IMG/VR virus record: IMGVR_UViG_3300034170_000057
Source of the DNA: a virus
Lineage: Duplodnaviria > Caudoviricetes
Direction: 5' to 3' (one strand)
DNA: 64,000 nucleotides
Program-made: the position numbers and the translations under genes
Notes under the pieces: generated by a model
What the model was told of the DNA's origin: nothing
Database searches by the model: none
Seen by the model: only the letters and a program-made list of their open reading frames with translations
In this document: one piece after another, positions 38,161 to 49,897 of the stretch
Layout of the letters: each line of letters starts with the position of its first letter
How positions within the stretch are numbered: position 1 is the stretch's first letter

Positions 38161-41100
38161 ATGGCTGCTCTAGACAAGCTAAACGAAATTGTTGATAAAC
38201 ACGCGACGGAAAAAACCGAACGCGAAGCGGCGCCAAAGCGTAAGAACGAAACCAAACCACGCCTAATGCAGCACGCACACGTGGCGCAGGATGACGACGT
38301 GCGGCTGTCGGGACAGAAGCGCCATTCGTATGCGCGTACCGGTCGTGCTGATCAGAAAAATCAGGGCCAGAAAAACACTGCGGTTCGCACACAAACGCAG
38401 GCAGGTAAAGGCGACCGTTCCAATGCTGACGCTATCGACGGGCAGACGCAGGTTATCCGCACGCAGGTAATGGCGTCGAATAAACAATCGAATTTGCTGC
38501 AACAGCAATCCGGTTTGATGCAAGATCAATTGGGCGCCATGCGTGACGTATCCGACGTAATCACGCGCCTTGCTGATTTCATGCAAAAGCAAGCGACCAA
38601 GCCAGAACCAAAAGTGCAGGGCGGCCACACTTACGAAGGACAATTTAGTCGCGTAAATGAACAAGAAGTCGCGGCCCAAGAACGTCGCCGCACGATCATG
38701 GATGACATGAAAGAAAGACGCCGCGAAAAACAGCGTGATCGTGCATCACGGCAGGAACGGGATCGCTTAGGACGTTTCAAACGCAGCGCGCCGAAAGGCC
38801 CCAAACTGCAACGTGTTGGCGGTGCTTTGCGTGGCGGTGCTGGCGCTCTAGGTGAAATGGGCGGCCTCGGCGGTCGTGCTGCGGGCATGGGTGCTGCTGC
38901 ATTAGGCCCCCTTCTCGCGTTGGCTACTGCGTACTATGGCGGCAAAGCCATGGATGCAATGTATGACAATGCAACGTTTGAAAAAAGTGAAGCCGGTTCC
39001 CTGCGCAAAGGTTATCAAAGCGCTGGCGATTGGATGCAGGACAAAATGCGTCCTGAGCAAGGGAATTCTTACGTCGATCAAAACACGCGTAATCAAGGCC
39101 GCGACGTAGAAGGCAAAATGATTGGCGAAAAGTCTCGCCATCAAGAATTTGGTGCGATTAGCGCAAACTTCGAATCCGGTGGCCGTGGCGTTGCGACCGT
39201 TTCCACAGGCAAGGGTGATAACGGCGGTGTTTCTTACGGGAAACATCAGCTTAGTTCCAAAGAAGGAACGATGACCGCTTACCTGCGTTCGGAAGACGGC
39301 CAGAAGTATTACAACGATTTCCGAGGACTGGCACCGGGCTCGAAAGAATTCGACTCGAAGTACAAAGAAGTCGCTGGTCGTGACGGTGATGAGTTCGATA
39401 AATCGCAACAGAAATTCGTAACCAAATCACACTACGATCCGCTGGCTGAATGGTTCACCAAACAATACGGCATTGATCTGGATAAGCGCTCGCGTGCTTT
39501 GAAAGAAGCGCTTTATTCTGTGTCGGTTCAGTACGGTGTTTCCACTGGTAAATCTGTTTTAGGTGATGCGTTCGGCAACCGCGATTTGGAAGGTATGGAC
39601 GATGCAACACTGATCGACTATATCCAAGAAACACGGGCCAACACTGTATCGACTCGTTTCCGTTCCAGTGACAAAGCAACACAGGAATCCGTTTACAAAC
39701 GTGCGGGTACTGAAAAAGCTGCGCTGTTGGGAATGCTCAACGAAGAAAAAGCGGGTCCGGGTTCTGCTGCAAAAGATGGTTCCGGAATCGGTGCTGCTTA
39801 TTCGCAGAAAATGATCGGTGCATACGGCGGCCAACCTGCGGGCGGTGGCGGTAGTAACACGGGCACAGGCGCTGCGTCGAACGGCACAATCGGAATCATG
39901 GCCCCTACTTCGGGCGGTGCTGCAACAACTGGTGCGGGTGACGAAGCGGGCGGCGGTACTGCTGCGGCTACGCTTAGTCCGGGTGACGGTGCGCTTTATG
40001 CACTCGGCCAAAAGAACACAATTCCAAACGATAATTCCGTGAACATGTCCGGTTTGAATGACAAATTCAAGCAAGCATTTTTCACCATGGTTGGCGATTG
40101 GGTTCAGAATAATTCCGGCACACAAGTAAAAGTTGCGTCGGCTTTCCGTACCCGTGCGGAACAGGAACAATTGTGGATTAAATACGGTCGCAATACCAAA
40201 CGCGTTGCACGTCCCGGTACGTCGCGGCACGAATCTGGTTTTGCAATCGACATTGACCGCGATTCTGCGTCGAAAATGGAAAGCACTGGCCTGTTCAAGA
40301 AATACGGTTTTCACCGTCCACTTTCTAATGAGCCTTGGCACGTCGAATTAATTGGTGGCTCGAAGGGTGGCGGCACTCCACCGGAAACTAAAGCGTCTGG
40401 CGCTGCCCCGCAATTAATGCAACAGGCGTCCGCTGAAATGGATGCTTCGGCAAAAGCTGTCGCAACAAATAGTGCTGAAGAAAACACGAAAGGTGCGGGC
40501 GCTGCACCGAGCGGTGGTGGTGCAACAACTGGTGCGGGTGACGAAGCGGGCGGCGGTACGGTTGCGAAATCTGGCGTGGCAGGCGGTAAGGATAAAATCG
40601 AGGAAGAGGAAGAAGAGGAAGAGGTAGACGAAAAACCAGAAGGCCCCGAAGGTGAAAATCACGAAATAAAAACGGAAGCAATGCCAGCAACCGTAAACGT
40701 GATGGGCGACACGCCGGTAACTACGCAGGGCGGTGTTCAAAATCCAGACGGAACCTATACAAAATCTGGAGCTAATGGGAATCCCTACGGCACTCCCGGT
40801 TCTCCCGGTACAAAAGCTGGTGGAACGTGGTCACAGCGCAATGGGCAAATGGGCCAAACCATGGGCGGCGGCGGATATTCTGGCTCTCCCGGTACACCCG
40901 GCTACGGTCAACGCGCACGCCCGTATTCCCAAACACAAACCGGTCGCGCAGTAACTGGCGCAGTTACAAAAATCGGTAACGTTATGGGCCTCGGTTCTTT
41001 CGGCACAATGGCTCCCGGCGTAGACGGTGGTTTGCGTGGAATTGATTCGAAAGTAAACGGCGTTTTCAACAAGGTTCCGGGGTTGCGTGAGCTTTCGCGT

Positions 41101-41670
41101 ATTCCGGGTCTTCCACAAATCCCGCGCCTGTCTTCTGGTCTGCCGAGTTTCGGAAATATCGTAACTGGCGCAGCAGATAAAATCGGAAGTTTCTTTGGTG
41201 GTGGCGATCCTGCACCAACCAACGTGCCTTATTCCGAGCGTCCGAAAATCATGAACGGCCAGAAGGTTACATACGATGGCCCTGCCGTAACTTCCACGGA
41301 TCAAATCGGTAAAACTTCGCTGAATGCTCCGGTGGCCGCAATGTCGCCCGCATCTGCAACGTATTACAACAACGATGCGCCGGTAGTTACTAAGTCCGCT
41401 GGCTCTATGCCGATTTCTCCAATGTCTGCACCTTCCCAAGCAACCGCAATGCCTGCACCCGAAGCTGTCGAAAGAAATAGTTTTGACGGCGTACAAAAGG
41501 TTTCTATTGCTTCGTCGGATGTTCCACAAGCCGATGGTGGCGGTGGCGCAGCAGCAGGCGGTGGTGGCGGTAGCGCAGGCGGTGCTAAAAACGATATGCC
41601 ACAAATCGACGACGCACCCGCAATCATGGATGACTTCGGCCTTCTGTTCGTAAATATGGGAATGGTTTAA
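38161..41670 (+). CDS. tape measure/baseplate hub protein with VgrG3-like muramidase and M15 (VanY-like) peptidase domains
   Basis: Coiled N-terminus, Gly/Ala-rich linkers; FESGGRG..VS.G.GD.GGVSYG.HQL lysozyme-like motif; SAFRT..EQ, ARPGTSRHESGFAID, EPWH zinc-peptidase motifs. Confidence 0.75.
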   Translation: MAALDKLNEIVDKHATEKTEREAAPKRKNETKPRLMQHAHVAQDDDVRLSGQKRHSYARTGRADQKNQGQKNTAVRTQTQAGKGDRSNADAIDGQTQVIRTQVMASNKQSNLLQQQSGLMQDQLGAMRDVSDVITRLADFMQKQATKPEPKVQGGHTYEGQFSRVNEQEVAAQERRRTIMDDMKERRREKQRDRASRQERDRLGRFKRSAPKGPKLQRVGGALRGGAGALGEMGGLGGRAAGMGAAALGPLLALATAYYGGKAMDAMYDNATFEKSEAGSLRKGYQSAGDWMQDKMRPEQGNSYVDQNTRNQGRDVEGKMIGEKSRHQEFGAISANFESGGRGVATVSTGKGDNGGVSYGKHQLSSKEGTMTAYLRSEDGQKYYNDFRGLAPGSKEFDSKYKEVAGRDGDEFDKSQQKFVTKSHYDPLAEWFTKQYGIDLDKRSRALKEALYSVSVQYGVSTGKSVLGDAFGNRDLEGMDDATLIDYIQETRANTVSTRFRSSDKATQESVYKRAGTEKAALLGMLNEEKAGPGSAAKDGSGIGAAYSQKMIGAYGGQPAGGGGSNTGTGAASNGTIGIMAPTSGGAATTGAGDEAGGGTAAATLSPGDGALYALGQKNTIPNDNSVNMSGLNDKFKQAFFTMVGDWVQNNSGTQVKVASAFRTRAEQEQLWIKYGRNTKRVARPGTSRHESGFAIDIDRDSASKMESTGLFKKYGFHRPLSNEPWHVELIGGSKGGGTPPETKASGAAPQLMQQASAEMDASAKAVATNSAEENTKGAGAAPSGGGATTGAGDEAGGGTVAKSGVAGGKDKIEEEEEEEEVDEKPEGPEGENHEIKTEAMPATVNVMGDTPVTTQGGVQNPDGTYTKSGANGNPYGTPGSPGTKAGGTWSQRNGQMGQTMGGGGYSGSPGTPGYGQRARPYSQTQTGRAVTGAVTKIGNVMGLGSFGTMAPGVDGGLRGIDSKVNGVFNKVPGLRELSRIPGLPQIPRLSSGLPSFGNIVTGAADKIGSFFGGGDPAPTNVPYSERPKIMNGQKVTYDGPAVTSTDQIGKTSLNAPVAAMSPASATYYNNDAPVVTKSAGSMPISPMSAPSQATAMPAPEAVERNSFDGVQKVSIASSDVPQADGGGGAAAGGGGGSAGGAKNDMPQIDDAPAIMDDFGLLFVNMGMV
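39921..40559 (+). repeat. 39-bp perfect direct repeat (39921-39959 and 40521-40559), 600 bp apart
   Basis: TGCAACAACTGGTGCGGGTGACGAAGCGGGCGGCGGTAC in both copies. Confidence 0.95.
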
Positions 41671-46606: not shown

Positions 46607-47530
46607 ATGAATGTCCAAGGCTATGATGGGGTGATGGGCGAAATCGTCGATGCCCTACAGGACCACGGCGACCCCGACAAGATCCGCCGCATTCAGGTAA
46701 CTGAAGCGGAAATGAATGAAATCGTAAAATCCGGTGCGTTTCGTAAAACCGCTGGCACCTATTACGGTTCCTCGGACGTTTATGTTTTCTCGGATATCGA
46801 AGCAGACTCATCGGGCAACATTTACTCGATGCGGCTTAGCGGTGTTCTGATTTGCCTCGGCCCATGGGAACCCAGCGGCGCATTGGCCGCTGTAGTTTAT
46901 GGCCCACTTACCGAAACACTGAAAGCCGAAACTGTTTTCGTGCGTGAAGTGAACGGCCAGAAATATATGCTGGCTGGCACAGGTAATCCGGCCAACGATT
47001 TCGTGATCGGAAAGAACGCAAATATCGAACTCGGTATTGCTGTGCGCAAATATAACAACGCTGATTATTTCGGTGATGGTGCAGGCACCTTCGATGTTGA
47101 ACTGGATGCAGGCGAGCGCTGGACTTTCGCACTGACCGCTGGTTCTGTTCTGGAAGGCGTTCCAAACTTCACGGAAATGTACGACGTTTCTCTGTACATC
47201 GACGTGGACCCGACCGGCGTCGTTGCCCCTATCAAATGGGATTTGCAGTGGACGCCAAACAGCACCGGTAAGGGCAATAATTTCACTTGGTACAACCAAG
47301 GCATTCGCGTTGTGGATGATTCTGCGACCAACGAATTGCACAACGTCACACAAATGATTCAGCAGTACACTTTCCCGTACATCGACCACGCAATTCCGCT
47401 GGGCGTTGAGCGCACGGAAGACGGTGTGCCACTGGGTATTTTCAGTTTGAAATTGGAAGCGCGCCCACGCCTGCAAACCGGCGATGCGGTTTCGGTTGAA
47501 GTGTTGGCAAACATCACAAAAAAGTTGTAA
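46607..47530 (+). CDS. putative virion surface protein (beta-sandwich C-terminal domain); short form
   Basis: 307 aa; GTGNPANDF....NIELGIAVR motif of surface beta-sandwich proteins; ends ACA AAA AAG TTG TAA. Confidence 0.65.
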   Translation: MNVQGYDGVMGEIVDALQDHGDPDKIRRIQVTEAEMNEIVKSGAFRKTAGTYYGSSDVYVFSDIEADSSGNIYSMRLSGVLICLGPWEPSGALAAVVYGPLTETLKAETVFVREVNGQKYMLAGTGNPANDFVIGKNANIELGIAVRKYNNADYFGDGAGTFDVELDAGERWTFALTAGSVLEGVPNFTEMYDVSLYIDVDPTGVVAPIKWDLQWTPNSTGKGNNFTWYNQGIRVVDDSATNELHNVTQMIQQYTFPYIDHAIPLGVERTEDGVPLGIFSLKLEARPRLQTGDAVSVEVLANITKKL

Positions 47531-47571
47531 AACCTGTTCCGCGACGTTCGCTGGTTGTCGGTGGTACAGGT
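47518..47571 (+). promoter_or_regulatory. -1 programmed ribosomal frameshift signal (A AAA AAG, 7-nt spacer, hairpin)
   Basis: Heptamer 47518-47524 in the correct phase; stem ACCTGT/ACAGGT extended by CCG/TGG and CGACG/TGTCG over 47532-47571. Confidence 0.75.
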
Positions 47572-48327
47572 ACTGACCAAGATGGAAACGGTTTATTCGT
47601 TCAGTCTAATGGTTTCGTACCTGCATCTGTTGCTGCATCCATTGTTGATATTGCGGCTGGTGATGGTCGCTACATTGCAGTGGGTTCTAAAGTCTACGAA
47701 TCTTTCGATAAGATCGAATGGACTGCGATGGATGTTGATTTAGTGTTTTCTCACATCGTTTACGCAGGTAAGTTTTACGCCTGCGTGGATGGTGTAGGGA
47801 TTTATGCACTCGATAAAGACTGGACGCTTGTCCACGAATTTACTGGTAATTTTGTGTGTGCCAGAAACATCGGCGGGCCTGCGTTCGGGACGGATCAGGG
47901 AATGATCTTGATTGGGCCAGAATGGCACTCGGTAACGGTTGGCGTTGGGCGTGTATGGTTGACGGATACTTCGGCAGATTTCCGTGTTGTTTTGAACAAC
48001 GGTGATCAGCTTGAAACTTTCCGTGGGCCGGTCAATGCGCTGATATCCGAAGGCGTAACCGAACTCGATGGCCTCACGGTTAGCGGGTGCTGGTACGACC
48101 AACAAAATAAATGCGTAGTAGTTAGCGCCGCGTTTGATGACTGTCCGATTTATGCAGTCTATAAAAACGGATGGACATTCAACATTGTCGAAGGTGACGT
48201 AGCAATCGACGTGGCCGACGGTGCAATGCTGACTAGCAACGCGGTGTACACCACCAAAGACTGGGCGACGTTCGAACTGCTGCATACGTTCGAAAACTTC
48301 GCTGCAAAAACTTTGCTGTTTGCGTGA
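47524..48327 (+). CDS. -1 frame extension (267 aa, beta-propeller/BNR-like) of the 46607 protein
   Basis: Frame open from 47500 with no ATG/GTG/TTG until GTG 47680, which has no SD; repeats such as YESFDKIEWT and YTTKDWATF. Confidence 0.7.
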   Translation, partial: VVKPVPRRSLVVGGTGTDQDGNGLFVQSNGFVPASVAASIVDIAAGDGRYIAVGSKVYESFDKIEWTAMDVDLVFSHIVYAGKFYACVDGVGIYALDKDWTLVHEFTGNFVCARNIGGPAFGTDQGMILIGPEWHSVTVGVGRVWLTDTSADFRVVLNNGDQLETFRGPVNALISEGVTELDGLTVSGCWYDQQNKCVVVSAAFDDCPIYAVYKNGWTFNIVEGDVAIDVADGAMLTSNAVYTTKDWATFELLHTFENFAAKTLLFA

Positions 48328-48330
48328 CAA

Positions 48331-48366
48331 GAAACCCCTGTTTCCAAAAGGAAACAGGGGTTTTTT
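48331..48366 (+). terminator. rho-independent terminator
   Basis: 14-bp perfect stem AAACCCCTGTTTCC/GGAAACAGGGGTTT followed by TTT. Confidence 0.9.
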
Positions 48367-48377
48367 CATTTGGGCAG

Positions 48378-48389
48378 ATACTGTAAATA
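48378..48389 (+). promoter_or_regulatory. promoter motif AWACTGTAAATA
   Basis: ATACTGTAAATA right after the terminator, 39 nt before ATG 48429. Confidence 0.7.
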
Positions 48390-48428
48390 TAGGTCATGTA
48401 TCTGACTGCCTAGTGCGAGGCAATAAAA

Positions 48429-49091: not shown

Positions 49092-49445
49092 ATGACAAGC
49101 CTTTCCCAAATGCAAGACCAGCTGGAGTCCATACGCACGCACCTCGGCACAGTACGAATCACCATCGGTAGTCACACGGTAAACGCCGATATCTTGGGCA
49201 CAAAAGTAAATGAAGCGGACGGTGACGCGCCTGAGTTTTTGGGAGCCTCGGTTCAGCTTCACACACCGTCACATGAATTGATTCGCATGCAGGAAACAAT
49301 CATCGACGCGCTGAAAGATGGCGACGACGCATTGGCCTATCTGCTGGCACCACAACGCACCTTGTGGAAAATCGCAGAAACACTGGATCTTACGCAGACC
49401 GCGCAAGGTGATTACATCTGGACACTTGGGGTTAAATATTTCTGA
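49092..49445 (+). CDS. hypothetical protein
   Basis: SD AAGGA, 117 aa. Confidence 0.6.
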   Translation: MTSLSQMQDQLESIRTHLGTVRITIGSHTVNADILGTKVNEADGDAPEFLGASVQLHTPSHELIRMQETIIDALKDGDDALAYLLAPQRTLWKIAETLDLTQTAQGDYIWTLGVKYF

Positions 49446-49897
49446 TGAGTAGTTTTACAACCCCGCTCGTTGCGGAATTTGAAGACGACGGAATTCATTA
49501 CGTTATCTGGCAGATGTTCACCTACCTAATCGGCATGCTCGGTTCTGGTATTTCTGTGAATGTTCCAGTCGGTTATCGTACTGATCTTGCATCCGTACCG
49601 TGGTGGATTCGCTGGCTGTTGCCACCTAACGGCAAGTACGGGAAGGCGGCAGTTATCCACGATTATATTTGCAGTTACAGAACTGTAAATGTGAATGGTA
49701 TAAACGTTTATGTCACACGCAAGCAAGGCGACATGATCTTTCTCGAAGCCATGGGCGTGCTGGGTGTTCCGGCGTGGCAAAAGTGGTCGATGTTCTGTGC
49801 CGTCCGCGCCTACGCAATCACAACGGGTATCGACAAGGCTGATGCACAAAAAGCTGCGAACGATCCGAAGTATTTCACCGACGTTTTAGCTGCGTGA
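49445..49897 (+). CDS. DUF1353-family protein
   Basis: VPVGYRTDLASVPWW.R...PP.GKY..AAVIHDY...R..GD.IFLEAM signature. Confidence 0.8.
   Translation: MSSFTTPLVAEFEDDGIHYVIWQMFTYLIGMLGSGISVNVPVGYRTDLASVPWWIRWLLPPNGKYGKAAVIHDYICSYRTVNVNGINVYVTRKQGDMIFLEAMGVLGVPAWQKWSMFCAVRAYAITTGIDKADAQKAANDPKYFTDVLAA

What the first reader, a model, noticed from the sequence alone, without database searches (positions are those of the whole stretch)
46607..48327. Programmed -1 frameshift adding a propeller-like domain to a virion protein
Seen: the 307-aa gene ends ATC ACA AAA AAG TTG TAA, so A AAA AAG (47518-47524) is in the X XXY YYZ phase. After a 7-nt spacer an extended hairpin spans 47532-47571. The -1 frame is open from 47500 to TGA 48327, and its first possible start (GTG 47680) has no SD. 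The 52 codons before that GTG read as normal protein (VVKPVPRRSLVVGGTGTDQDGNGLFVQ...IVDIAAGDGRYIAVG). A strong terminator follows. Established: A AAA AAG is the most efficient bacterial -1 slippery site (E. coli dnaX, IS3-family elements), and a 3' hairpin stimulates it. Inference: the locus makes 307-aa and ~573-aa forms at a fixed ratio, the longer carrying a BNR/beta-propeller-like adhesion or glycan-binding domain. It is not the tail chaperone G/GT locus, and automated annotation would split it and truncate the second ORF.
Basis: partly seen in the sequence, partly recalled or inferred. Interest (0 to 1): 0.85.

Follow-up and report, generated by a model that had tools for sequence, protein, structure and literature searches.

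The report
Conserved -1 frameshift in jumbo phage gene
A gene of a Lu11-like Pseudomonas jumbo phage almost certainly uses a programmed -1 ribosomal slip to make a 307-residue protein and a 573-residue version carrying an extra beta-rich domain; this is a well-supported, unannotated example of a known phage trick.

Summary
ORF1 (46607-47530) ends ACA AAA AAG TTG TAA, so A_AAA_AAG (47518-47524) is in X_XXY_YYZ phase. A hairpin (47532-47571) follows a 7-nt spacer. The -1 frame stays open to TGA 48327, with no start codon for 52 codons.

The heptamer alone is not rare (18 in the window, about 22 expected). The comparative evidence is decisive:
- Twenty-one loci carry the in-phase heptamer, a zero-frame stop 0-1 codons later, and a 250-270-codon -1 frame whose first start codon lies 39-88 codons downstream where tabulated. 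They are the window, Lu11, HRDY3 and 18 metagenomic loci; two pairs are near-duplicates.
- Synonymous variability falls to 0.05-0.1 at the slip site and hairpin, against 0.27-0.63 elsewhere.
- The residues just after the slip are among the best conserved.
- One distant relative encodes both halves as a single in-frame 582-aa protein without a heptamer.

The functional labels are weaker. ORF1's Ig-like C-terminal domain is homologous to PA5oct EST35_0383, annotated as a mass-spectrometry-detected structural protein. The extension matches one blade of DUF6242-type propeller repeats, but its fold model failed.

Verdict: a new member of a known kind, frameshift-appended C-terminal domains on phage structural proteins. 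GenBank records split it and truncate the second ORF. The same stretch was noted once before in this scan (e1-5408915).

The parts
46607..47530 (+). ORF1, the zero-frame product of 307 aa. It has an N-terminal module of about 90 aa and an Ig-like beta-sandwich domain at about residues 105-307.
   Evidence: ORF list and translation. Eighteen homologues of 306-309 aa with 61-86% identity. AF2 model with pLDDT 74. Ig-like matches at Z 5-6.5 only. hhalign to PA5oct EST35_0383: probability 97.4%, E 9e-12.
47518..47524 (+). Slippery heptamer A_AAA_AAG in X_XXY_YYZ phase.
   Evidence: It is present and in phase in 21 loci. The preceding codon varies (ACA, GCA, GTA) but always ends in A. It is absent from the in-frame fusion L013.
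47525..47531 (+). 7-nt spacer that contains the zero-frame stop TAA at 47528-47530.
   Evidence: The spacer length is constant. The zero-frame stop lies 0-1 codons after AAG in all loci.
47532..47571 (+). Putative 3' stimulatory hairpin of 13-14 bp with one bulged G.
   Evidence: RNAfold. In the 12-sequence consensus structure the stem is invariant or changes only to G-U-compatible pairs, and variation sits in the loop. No compensatory pairs were found. The distant L023 keeps the lower 9 bp at the same spacing with a different upper stem.
47524..48327 (+). -1 frame extension of 267 codons plus TGA. It is an all-beta, propeller-like C-terminal domain of the 573-aa transframe product.
   Evidence: There is no start codon for 52 codons. 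The first 35 residues are nearly invariant. Third-position bias in codons 21-52 is 223/295/599. One blade matches DUF6242-type repeat proteins.
48332..48366 (+). Intrinsic-terminator-like hairpin plus T-run directly after the -1 frame stop.
   Evidence: Read directly from the sequence. Weak Rfam hits here are generic terminator hairpins. Contigs from an RNA library stop at 48326 and resume at 48388, which is only a weak hint.

Best explanation
This is one gene decoded in two ways. Most ribosomes translate ORF1 (46607-47530) to its TAA and release a 307-aa protein. That protein has a small N-terminal module and an Ig-like beta-sandwich.

A fraction of ribosomes behave differently. They pause over A_AAA_AAG (47518-47524) because the hairpin 7 nt downstream (47532-47571) resists unwinding. 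The lysyl-tRNAs slip back one base, and translation continues in the -1 frame for 267 more codons to TGA 48327. The result is a 573-aa protein with the same N-terminal 306 residues plus an all-beta, propeller-like domain. The transcript then ends at the terminator at 48332-48366.

What is shown: the anatomy and its conservation, purifying selection on the start-less -1 frame, RNA-level constraint on the slip site and hairpin, and a natural in-frame fusion in a relative.

What is inferred: that the slip is ribosomal, that the hairpin is the stimulator, and that both products are used. I also infer that the long form is a minority, surface-exposed virion component whose propeller domain binds a host or environmental ligand.
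For: (1) Anatomy at the exact coordinates.

(2) Twenty-one loci have the in-phase heptamer, a zero-frame stop 0-1 codons later and an open -1 frame. They are the window, HRDY3, Lu11 and 18 metagenomic loci, two pairs of which are near-duplicates. ORF1 identity across its homologues is 61-86%. In the 13 tabulated loci the -1 frame runs 267-270 codons and its first possible start lies 40-88 codons downstream, at different positions. Seven IMG/VR loci give 268-269 codons. In L023 the frame runs about 260 codons (a 250-codon called gene plus 10 codons between the slip and its start), with the called start about 10 codons after the slip.

(3) Among pairs with the same residue, the fraction with different codons drops to 0.05-0.11 in the 15-codon windows from the slip site to about 20 codons downstream. 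It is 0.27-0.63 everywhere else in the 585-column alignment.

(4) The stretch with no start codon behaves as coding sequence. The first 35 residues after the slip are nearly invariant. Codons 21-52 show pairwise differences of 223/295/599 at positions 1/2/3, and the -1 frame has no stops while both other frames do.

(5) P0024 (582 aa, locus L013) is an in-frame fusion of both halves. It is 40% identical to ORF1 and 37% to the extension. Its junction has neither a heptamer nor a stop.

(6) The hairpin stem is invariant or G-U compatible, and variation is confined to the loop. The distant L023 keeps a hairpin at the same 7-nt spacing with a different inner stem.

(7) An independent 86-kb DNA contig with 80 substitutions has no indel in the junction. 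A contig from an RNA library is identical across the heptamer.

Against: - No transframe protein, junction peptide or reporter measurement exists, so the efficiency and even the occurrence of slipping are inferred.
- The hairpin has no compensatory base changes, and its energy is unremarkable against shuffles. Its role rests on sequence conservation alone.
- No dnaX-like upstream Shine-Dalgarno stimulator is evident.
- The heptamer is common in the window.
- Transcriptional slippage on the A6 run would give the same protein and was not excluded, because only consensus contigs were available.
- Virion location and ligand binding rest on remote homology only.
Confidence: 0.86

Rival explanations
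1. Transcriptional slippage rather than ribosomal slippage. RNA polymerase adds one extra A in the A6 run, so a subset of mRNAs encodes the 573-aa fusion in frame.
For: The run of six A's is conserved, including the variable preceding codon that always ends in A. An A insertion would give exactly the same protein. The data available here are consensus contigs, which cannot show minority transcripts.
Against: - By my own knowledge, six A's is shorter than the roughly 8-9 nt runs that give productive slippage in bacteria.
- The conserved element lies downstream at a fixed 7-nt spacing. That placement suits a ribosome but not a polymerase, whose stimulatory hairpins form upstream in the nascent RNA.
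- The heptamer is always in X_XXY_YYZ phase and always ends in G.
- The RNA-library contig carries A6.
Confidence: 0.06
2. Two separate genes. The second ORF starts on its own at an internal GTG, ATG or TTG, or at a non-canonical codon by termination-reinitiation. The heptamer is incidental.
For: Gene callers and both GenBank records annotate two genes. Candidate starts exist 39-88 codons after the slip site in the 13 tabulated loci.
Against: - The candidate starts are at different positions in different loci, and the window's GTG 47680 has no SD.
- The 39-88 codons upstream of them are open, under purifying selection, and include the best-conserved residues of the whole extension.
- No canonical start exists in the -1 frame between its upstream stop and the slip site.
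- A relative fuses the two halves in frame.
Confidence: 0.04
3. Artefact or decay. Either a sequencing or assembly indel in a homopolymer, or a recent frameshift mutation that broke an ancestrally fused gene.
For: An in-frame fused relative exists. The break falls in a homopolymer run.
Against: - The same arrangement appears in 21 loci from isolates, JGI, ENA, Logan and IMG/VR assemblies that differ by up to about 40% in protein sequence.
- Both halves are under purifying selection.
- A second DNA assembly has no indel in the junction.
- The fused relative has a quite different junction sequence without an A run.
Confidence: 0.02

Closest known systems
Frameshift-appended C-terminal domains on phage structural proteins: T3/T7 gene 10A/10B, Lactobacillus phage A2 major head protein, Listeria phages A118/A500/PSA capsid and tail proteins, and the Ig-like domain additions described by Fraser et al. 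2006 (as reviewed in PMC5009743).
   Same: - One gene yields a short form and a C-terminally extended form through a slip near the end of the zero-frame ORF.
- The extension is a separate folded domain.
- Relatives carry the same domain in frame without frameshifting. L013 shows this here, and the review notes the same indifference for Ig-like extensions.
   Different: - The appended domain is large (267 aa) and propeller-like rather than a roughly 90-aa Ig-like domain. Here the Ig-like part belongs to the zero-frame body.
- The host gene is not a major capsid or major tail protein, and its role is unknown.
- The lineage is jumbo myoviruses of the Lu11 group.
- Virion incorporation has not been shown.
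E. coli dnaX gamma/tau -1 frameshift cassette
   Same: It has the identical slippery heptamer A_AAA_AAG followed by a 3' stem-loop after a short spacer (PMC5009743).
   Different: - dnaX slipping truncates the protein, whereas here it extends it.
- dnaX also has an upstream SD-like stimulator, and none is evident here.
- The genes are unrelated.
Phage tail assembly chaperone G/GT frameshift (lambda-like)
   Same: It is a conserved -1 frameshift in a phage late-region gene that gives two products sharing an N-terminus.
   Different: - G/GT genes are short and sit between the major tail and tape-measure genes, and their products are absent from virions (PMC5009743).
- This gene encodes 307 and 573 aa.
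- It lies between a dCTP deaminase-like gene and DUF1353 or unknown genes.
- Its homologue in PA5oct is annotated as virion-associated.
Pseudomonas phage PA5oct EST35_0383 (326 aa), annotated 'structural protein, ESI-MS/MS'
   Same: It is homologous to ORF1 residues 105-305 (hhalign probability 97.4%, E 9e-12). Both proteins end at the same C-terminal ...VTK / ...ITKK.
   Different: PA5oct has no extension, heptamer or downstream propeller ORF, so only the short form exists there.

Membership tests
-1 programmed ribosomal frameshift cassette (X_XXY_YYZ plus 3' structure) | Slippery heptamer in X_XXY_YYZ phase near the end of the zero-frame ORF | tested here: met
   A_AAA_AAG at 47518-47524 is in phase in the window and in 20 further loci.
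-1 programmed ribosomal frameshift cassette (X_XXY_YYZ plus 3' structure) | Stable 3' RNA structure 5-9 nt downstream of the heptamer | tested here: met
   A hairpin of about -16 to -17 kcal/mol sits after a 7-nt spacer in all close loci, and L023 has a variant at the same spacing. There are no compensatory changes, so its function is inferred from conservation.
-1 programmed ribosomal frameshift cassette (X_XXY_YYZ plus 3' structure) | -1 frame open from the site, lacking its own start, and evolving as protein | tested here: met
-1 programmed ribosomal frameshift cassette (X_XXY_YYZ plus 3' structure) | Suppressed synonymous variation over the signal | tested here: met
   0.05-0.11 at the signal against 0.27-0.63 elsewhere.
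-1 programmed ribosomal frameshift cassette (X_XXY_YYZ plus 3' structure) | Transframe polypeptide actually made, with heptamer-dependent efficiency | not testable with these tools
   This needs proteomics or reporter assays.
dnaX-type cassette specifically | Upstream Shine-Dalgarno-like stimulator about 10 nt 5' of the heptamer | tested here: not met
   The 36 nt upstream hold no conserved AGGAG-like element. GAAGTG or GAGGT 14-20 nt upstream varies and is explained by Val-Glu-Val codons.
Tail assembly chaperone G/GT | Short ORF pair placed between the major tail protein and tape-measure genes | tested here: not met
   The products are 307 and 573 aa. The neighbours are a dCTP deaminase-like gene, small unknown ORFs and DUF1353. 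No Pfam or PHROG chaperone family hit was found.
Frameshift-appended domain on a phage virion protein | The zero-frame body is a virion structural protein | tested here: inconclusive
   There is only remote homology to PA5oct EST35_0383, annotated 'structural protein; ESI-MS/MS'. The PA5oct paper reports 93 virion-linked products but does not name this one in its main text. No proteome for Lu11 or HRDY3 could be read.
Frameshift-appended domain on a phage virion protein | The same domain combination occurs in frame in relatives | tested here: met
   P0024 / L013, 582 aa.
BNR/Asp-box or DUF6242-type beta-propeller | Pfam model hit above the gathering threshold | tested here: not met
   No BNR, DUF6242 or propeller family hit for the window's extension or nine homologues.
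BNR/Asp-box or DUF6242-type beta-propeller | Homology to repeat blades of recognised propeller proteins | tested here: met
   phmmer finds multi-repeat proteins P0028-P0032 (E 1e-8 to 1e-4) that themselves hit DUF6242 and Beta-prop_HVO_0234. hhalign of A4 against P0028 gives probability 95%, E 2.7e-8, but over one blade of 51 columns only. Atlas feature hits point the same way, as leads only.
BNR/Asp-box or DUF6242-type beta-propeller | Closed multi-blade propeller fold | tested here: inconclusive
   The AF2 model has mean pLDDT 38.6 and is all-beta but unusable. About six W-containing blade-like segments are seen by eye only.

The most novel reading that the evidence does not exclude
The frameshift sets a fixed sub-stoichiometric dose of a propeller-type ligand-binding domain on an Ig-like virion surface protein of Lu11-group jumbo phages. 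Only some copies of a repeated structural position would then carry a receptor- or glycan-binding head. Across relatives the three states would tune host adsorption: short form only in PA5oct, PRF mixture in the Lu11 group, and always fused in L013.
Probability: 0.3. Interest if true: 0.6.

Novelty: new member of a known kind. Interest (0 to 1): 0.5.

Why it matters
- It corrects the annotation of a conserved gene in a whole jumbo-phage lineage. Lu11 gp042/gp041, HRDY3 and many metagenomic genomes currently list two 'hypothetical proteins', the second truncated by 40-90 codons.
- It adds a clean, comparatively validated case of -1 frameshifting outside the tail-chaperone locus. The appended domain is unusually large and not Ig-like.
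- It offers a natural three-state series for testing why phages use recoding to dose an accessory domain: body alone, PRF-linked, and fused.
- Lu11 and HRDY3 are cultured phages, so the prediction can be tested directly.

Tried and rejected
- Pfam and PHROGs on both halves gave nothing significant. The weak hits were Phage_hub_GP28 at E 0.23 and DUF2917 at E 0.02.
- A profile search of PDB sequences with the extension gave nothing below E 0.19.
- The AlphaFold model of the extension, built from 10 sequences, had pLDDT 38.6 and was not used for fold searches.
- For the ORF1 model, Foldseek against PDB found no hit at E <= 0.001. VIA-align wide gave only generic Ig-like sandwiches at Z <= 6.5. 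Atlas gave TM <= 0.48. BFVD hits were other unnamed jumbo-phage proteins.
- The first viral-contig scan with ORF1 peptide patterns found no relatives.
- Covariation test of the hairpin: 0 compensatory pairs, and the shuffles did equally well.
- A pseudoknot between the hairpin loop and downstream ACCAAG was considered by eye. It was dropped because the loop and the downstream stretch vary independently.
- Rfam found no frameshift element, only terminator-like noise at 48320-48390.
- The window has no tRNA genes, so a phage tRNA-Lys could not be assessed.
- No whole genome is held for the window. No paralogues of either half exist in Lu11 or HRDY3.
- The Lu11 genome paper could not be read. No paper in the library mentions HRDY3 or this frameshift.
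- In run X1, contigs break at 47480-47494 and at 48327-48387. The runs are contigs only, so they give no information on transcript ends or minority A7 species.
Full report
**1. The observation**

- ORF1 runs 46607-47530 and gives 307 aa. It ends ATC ACA AAA AAG TTG TAA.
- A_AAA_AAG occupies 47518-47524, with its first A in codon position 3.
- The -1 frame has no stop from 47500 to TGA 48325-48327.
- The first ATG/GTG/TTG in that frame is GTG 47680, 52 codons after the slip site, and it has no Shine-Dalgarno-like sequence in front.
- RNAfold places a 13-14 bp hairpin at 47532-47571, after a 7-nt spacer. It is worth about -17 kcal/mol on its own.
- A GC-rich hairpin with a T-run follows the -1 stop at 48332-48366.
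- A -1 slip on the heptamer would give 306 + 267 = 573 aa.

Taken singly, these features are not unusual. AAAAAAG occurs 18 times in the window against about 22 expected. The 83-nt region folds no better than shuffles (z = -0.67).

**2. What the window is**

The stretch matches the Pseudomonas jumbo phages HRDY3 (313 kb) and Lu11 (280 kb) at about 67% nucleotide identity. Upstream the window carries a 1169-aa protein with VgrG3-like and VanY domains and a dCTP deaminase-like gene. A DUF1353 gene lies downstream. Both GenBank records annotate two hypothetical proteins at this locus. The second is started 40 codons (Lu11 gp041) or 90 codons (HRDY3) after the slip site.

**3. Comparative test**

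ORF1 has 18 homologues of 306-309 aa in the large protein collection. I fetched the DNA for ten of them. Seven further IMG/VR loci came from a scan with the extension. One distant locus, L023, came from the representative search.

With the window, Lu11 and HRDY3, this makes 21 loci; two pairs are near-duplicates. All 21 share these features:
- A_AAA_AAG is in the same phase.
- A zero-frame stop lies 0-1 codons later.
- The -1 frame is open for 267-270 codons in the close loci and about 260 in L023.
- No canonical start lies between the -1 frame's upstream stop and the slip site.

The codon before the heptamer varies (ACA, GCA, GTA) but always ends in A. In the 13 tabulated loci the first possible -1 start lies 40-88 codons downstream, at inconsistent positions. 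Gene callers accordingly produced second ORFs of 112 to 226 aa.

**4. The start-less stretch is translated**

The residues just after the slip are close to invariant across loci whose extensions are otherwise 50-85% identical. They read VVKPVPRRSLVVGG.GT...G..VQS.GFVPAS. In codons 21-52, still upstream of the window's GTG, pairwise differences at codon positions 1/2/3 are 223/295/599. The -1 frame has no stops, while both other frames have them in every locus.

**5. RNA-level constraint**

I built a codon alignment of the conceptual transframe gene from 13 loci. For pairs with the same residue, I measured the fraction that use different codons. That fraction is 0.27-0.63 along the whole 585-column alignment, with one exception. 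In the windows that begin at the slip site and run about 20 codons downstream it drops to 0.05-0.11. This is the expected signature of an overlapping functional RNA element, and it coincides with the heptamer, spacer and hairpin.

Within the hairpin, substitutions fall in the loop or are G-U compatible. There are no compensatory double changes, and the formal pair count is no better than shuffles. Support for the structure is therefore conservation, not covariation. The distant L023 keeps the heptamer, the 7-nt spacer and the lower nine base pairs but has a different upper stem. No dnaX-like upstream SD element is evident. Rfam has no matching family.

**6. A natural fusion**

An exhaustive phmmer search with the extension found only 12 representatives. 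One of them, P0024, is 582 aa long. Its first 305 residues align with ORF1 at 40% identity, and residues 307-582 align with the extension at 37% identity.

Its locus L013 lies on a 115-kb contig and is also followed by a DUF1353 gene. The junction there reads straight through (...ITYKEPTPTPKKTFIIGG...) with no A run and no stop. This shows that the two halves function as one polypeptide. It also argues against an assembly indel, because the fused relative's junction is quite different.

An independent 86-kb DNA contig, 96% identical with 80 substitutions across the stretch, has its only indel after the -1 stop. A contig from an RNA library is identical across 47495-48326.

**7. What the protein is**

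ORF1 models reasonably well (pLDDT 74). It has a small helix/strand N-terminal module and a beta-sandwich at about residues 105-307.
- Solved structures give only generic Ig-like matches (Z <= 6.5).
- Predicted viral structures give other jumbo-phage proteins.
- A profile of ORF1 aligns with PA5oct EST35_0383 at 97.4% probability (E 9e-12, 179 columns). Both proteins end at the same point.
- That PA5oct gene is annotated 'structural protein; ESI-MS/MS'. The PA5oct paper reports 93 virion-linked products (PMC7318152). PA5oct has no extension.
- The N-terminal 83 residues match a stand-alone 93-aa PaBG protein.

The extension has no Pfam hit, and its AlphaFold model failed (pLDDT 38.6, all-beta). 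Three lines of evidence point to a propeller-like repeat:
- Its residues 42-117 match, several times over, repeat proteins P0028-P0032, which themselves hit DUF6242 and HVO_0234-like beta-propeller models.
- hhalign to one of them gives 95% probability over one blade.
- Language-model neighbours are BNR/DUF6242-type clusters, which are leads only.

By eye there are about six blade-like segments ending in a conserved Trp. 'Propeller-like' is therefore plausible but not established. 'Adhesin or glycan-binding' is inference.

**8. Mechanism and rivals**

The best explanation is classical tandem -1 slippage of lysyl-tRNAs on A_AAA_AAG, stimulated by the downstream hairpin. A_AAA_AAG is the dnaX shift site and is far more shift-prone in E. 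coli than the other heptamers tested (PMC5009743).
- Transcriptional slippage on A6 would yield the same protein. It fits poorly with the short run and with a conserved element at fixed spacing downstream. It could not be excluded with consensus contigs.
- Independent initiation is contradicted by sections 3, 4 and 6.
- Artefact or decay is contradicted by sections 3, 4 and 6.

**9. Relation to known systems**

This belongs with frameshift-appended C-terminal domains on phage structural proteins: T3/T7 gene 10, phage A2, and Listeria phages. The Atkins et al. review notes that such domains are found in frame in some phages and via frameshifting in others. That is the pattern seen here across PA5oct, L013 and the Lu11 group.

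It differs from those cases in three ways. The appended domain is large and not Ig-like. The body protein is uncharacterised. The lineage is jumbo phages.

It is not a G/GT tail chaperone, judged by size, neighbourhood and family. I found no paper describing it.

**10. Verdict**

It is a new member of a known kind and of moderate interest. What is missing is protein-level proof and the role of the two forms. Both are directly testable in the cultured phages Lu11 and HRDY3.

Noticed in passing
L002:4707-5159 (Lu11 gp040); window 49445-49897: Lu11 gp040 is annotated 'tail assembly chaperone', but the homologous window gene hits only DUF1353 (E 7e-25). A DUF1353 gene follows the frameshift gene at a short distance in nearly all loci, including the in-frame-fusion locus L013.
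   Followed up: partly
L010:1-1052: In one metagenomic relative the dCTP deaminase-like gene upstream encodes 608 aa, with an Intein_splicing domain inserted between two DCD halves. In the window and the other loci it is 243-286 aa without an intein.
   Followed up: no
window 38161-41670: A 1169-aa protein combines a T6SS VgrG3-like C-terminal domain (E 5e-55) with a VanY D-Ala-D-Ala carboxypeptidase domain. It is probably a tail spike or hub protein with cell-wall hydrolase activity.
   Followed up: no
window 46607-46860; PaBG KF147891 33665-33919: The N-terminal 83 residues or so of ORF1 occur as a stand-alone 93-aa protein in phage PaBG (tblastn 41% identity, E 5e-8; BFVD S5VZG7, TM 0.71). 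ORF1 therefore appears to be modular itself.
   Followed up: partly
window 47480-47494 and 48327-48387: Contigs from a metatranscriptomic library that holds 97% of the stretch break at these two places. The second gap spans the terminator hairpin. These are contigs only, so nothing can be concluded about transcript ends.
   Followed up: no
window 47572-47592: A second small conserved stem (CCA...UGG, 3 bp) sits just 3' of the main hairpin. Reduced synonymous variation extends to about 66 nt past the slip site, a little beyond the hairpin. Whether the stimulator is larger than the simple hairpin is unknown.
   Followed up: partly
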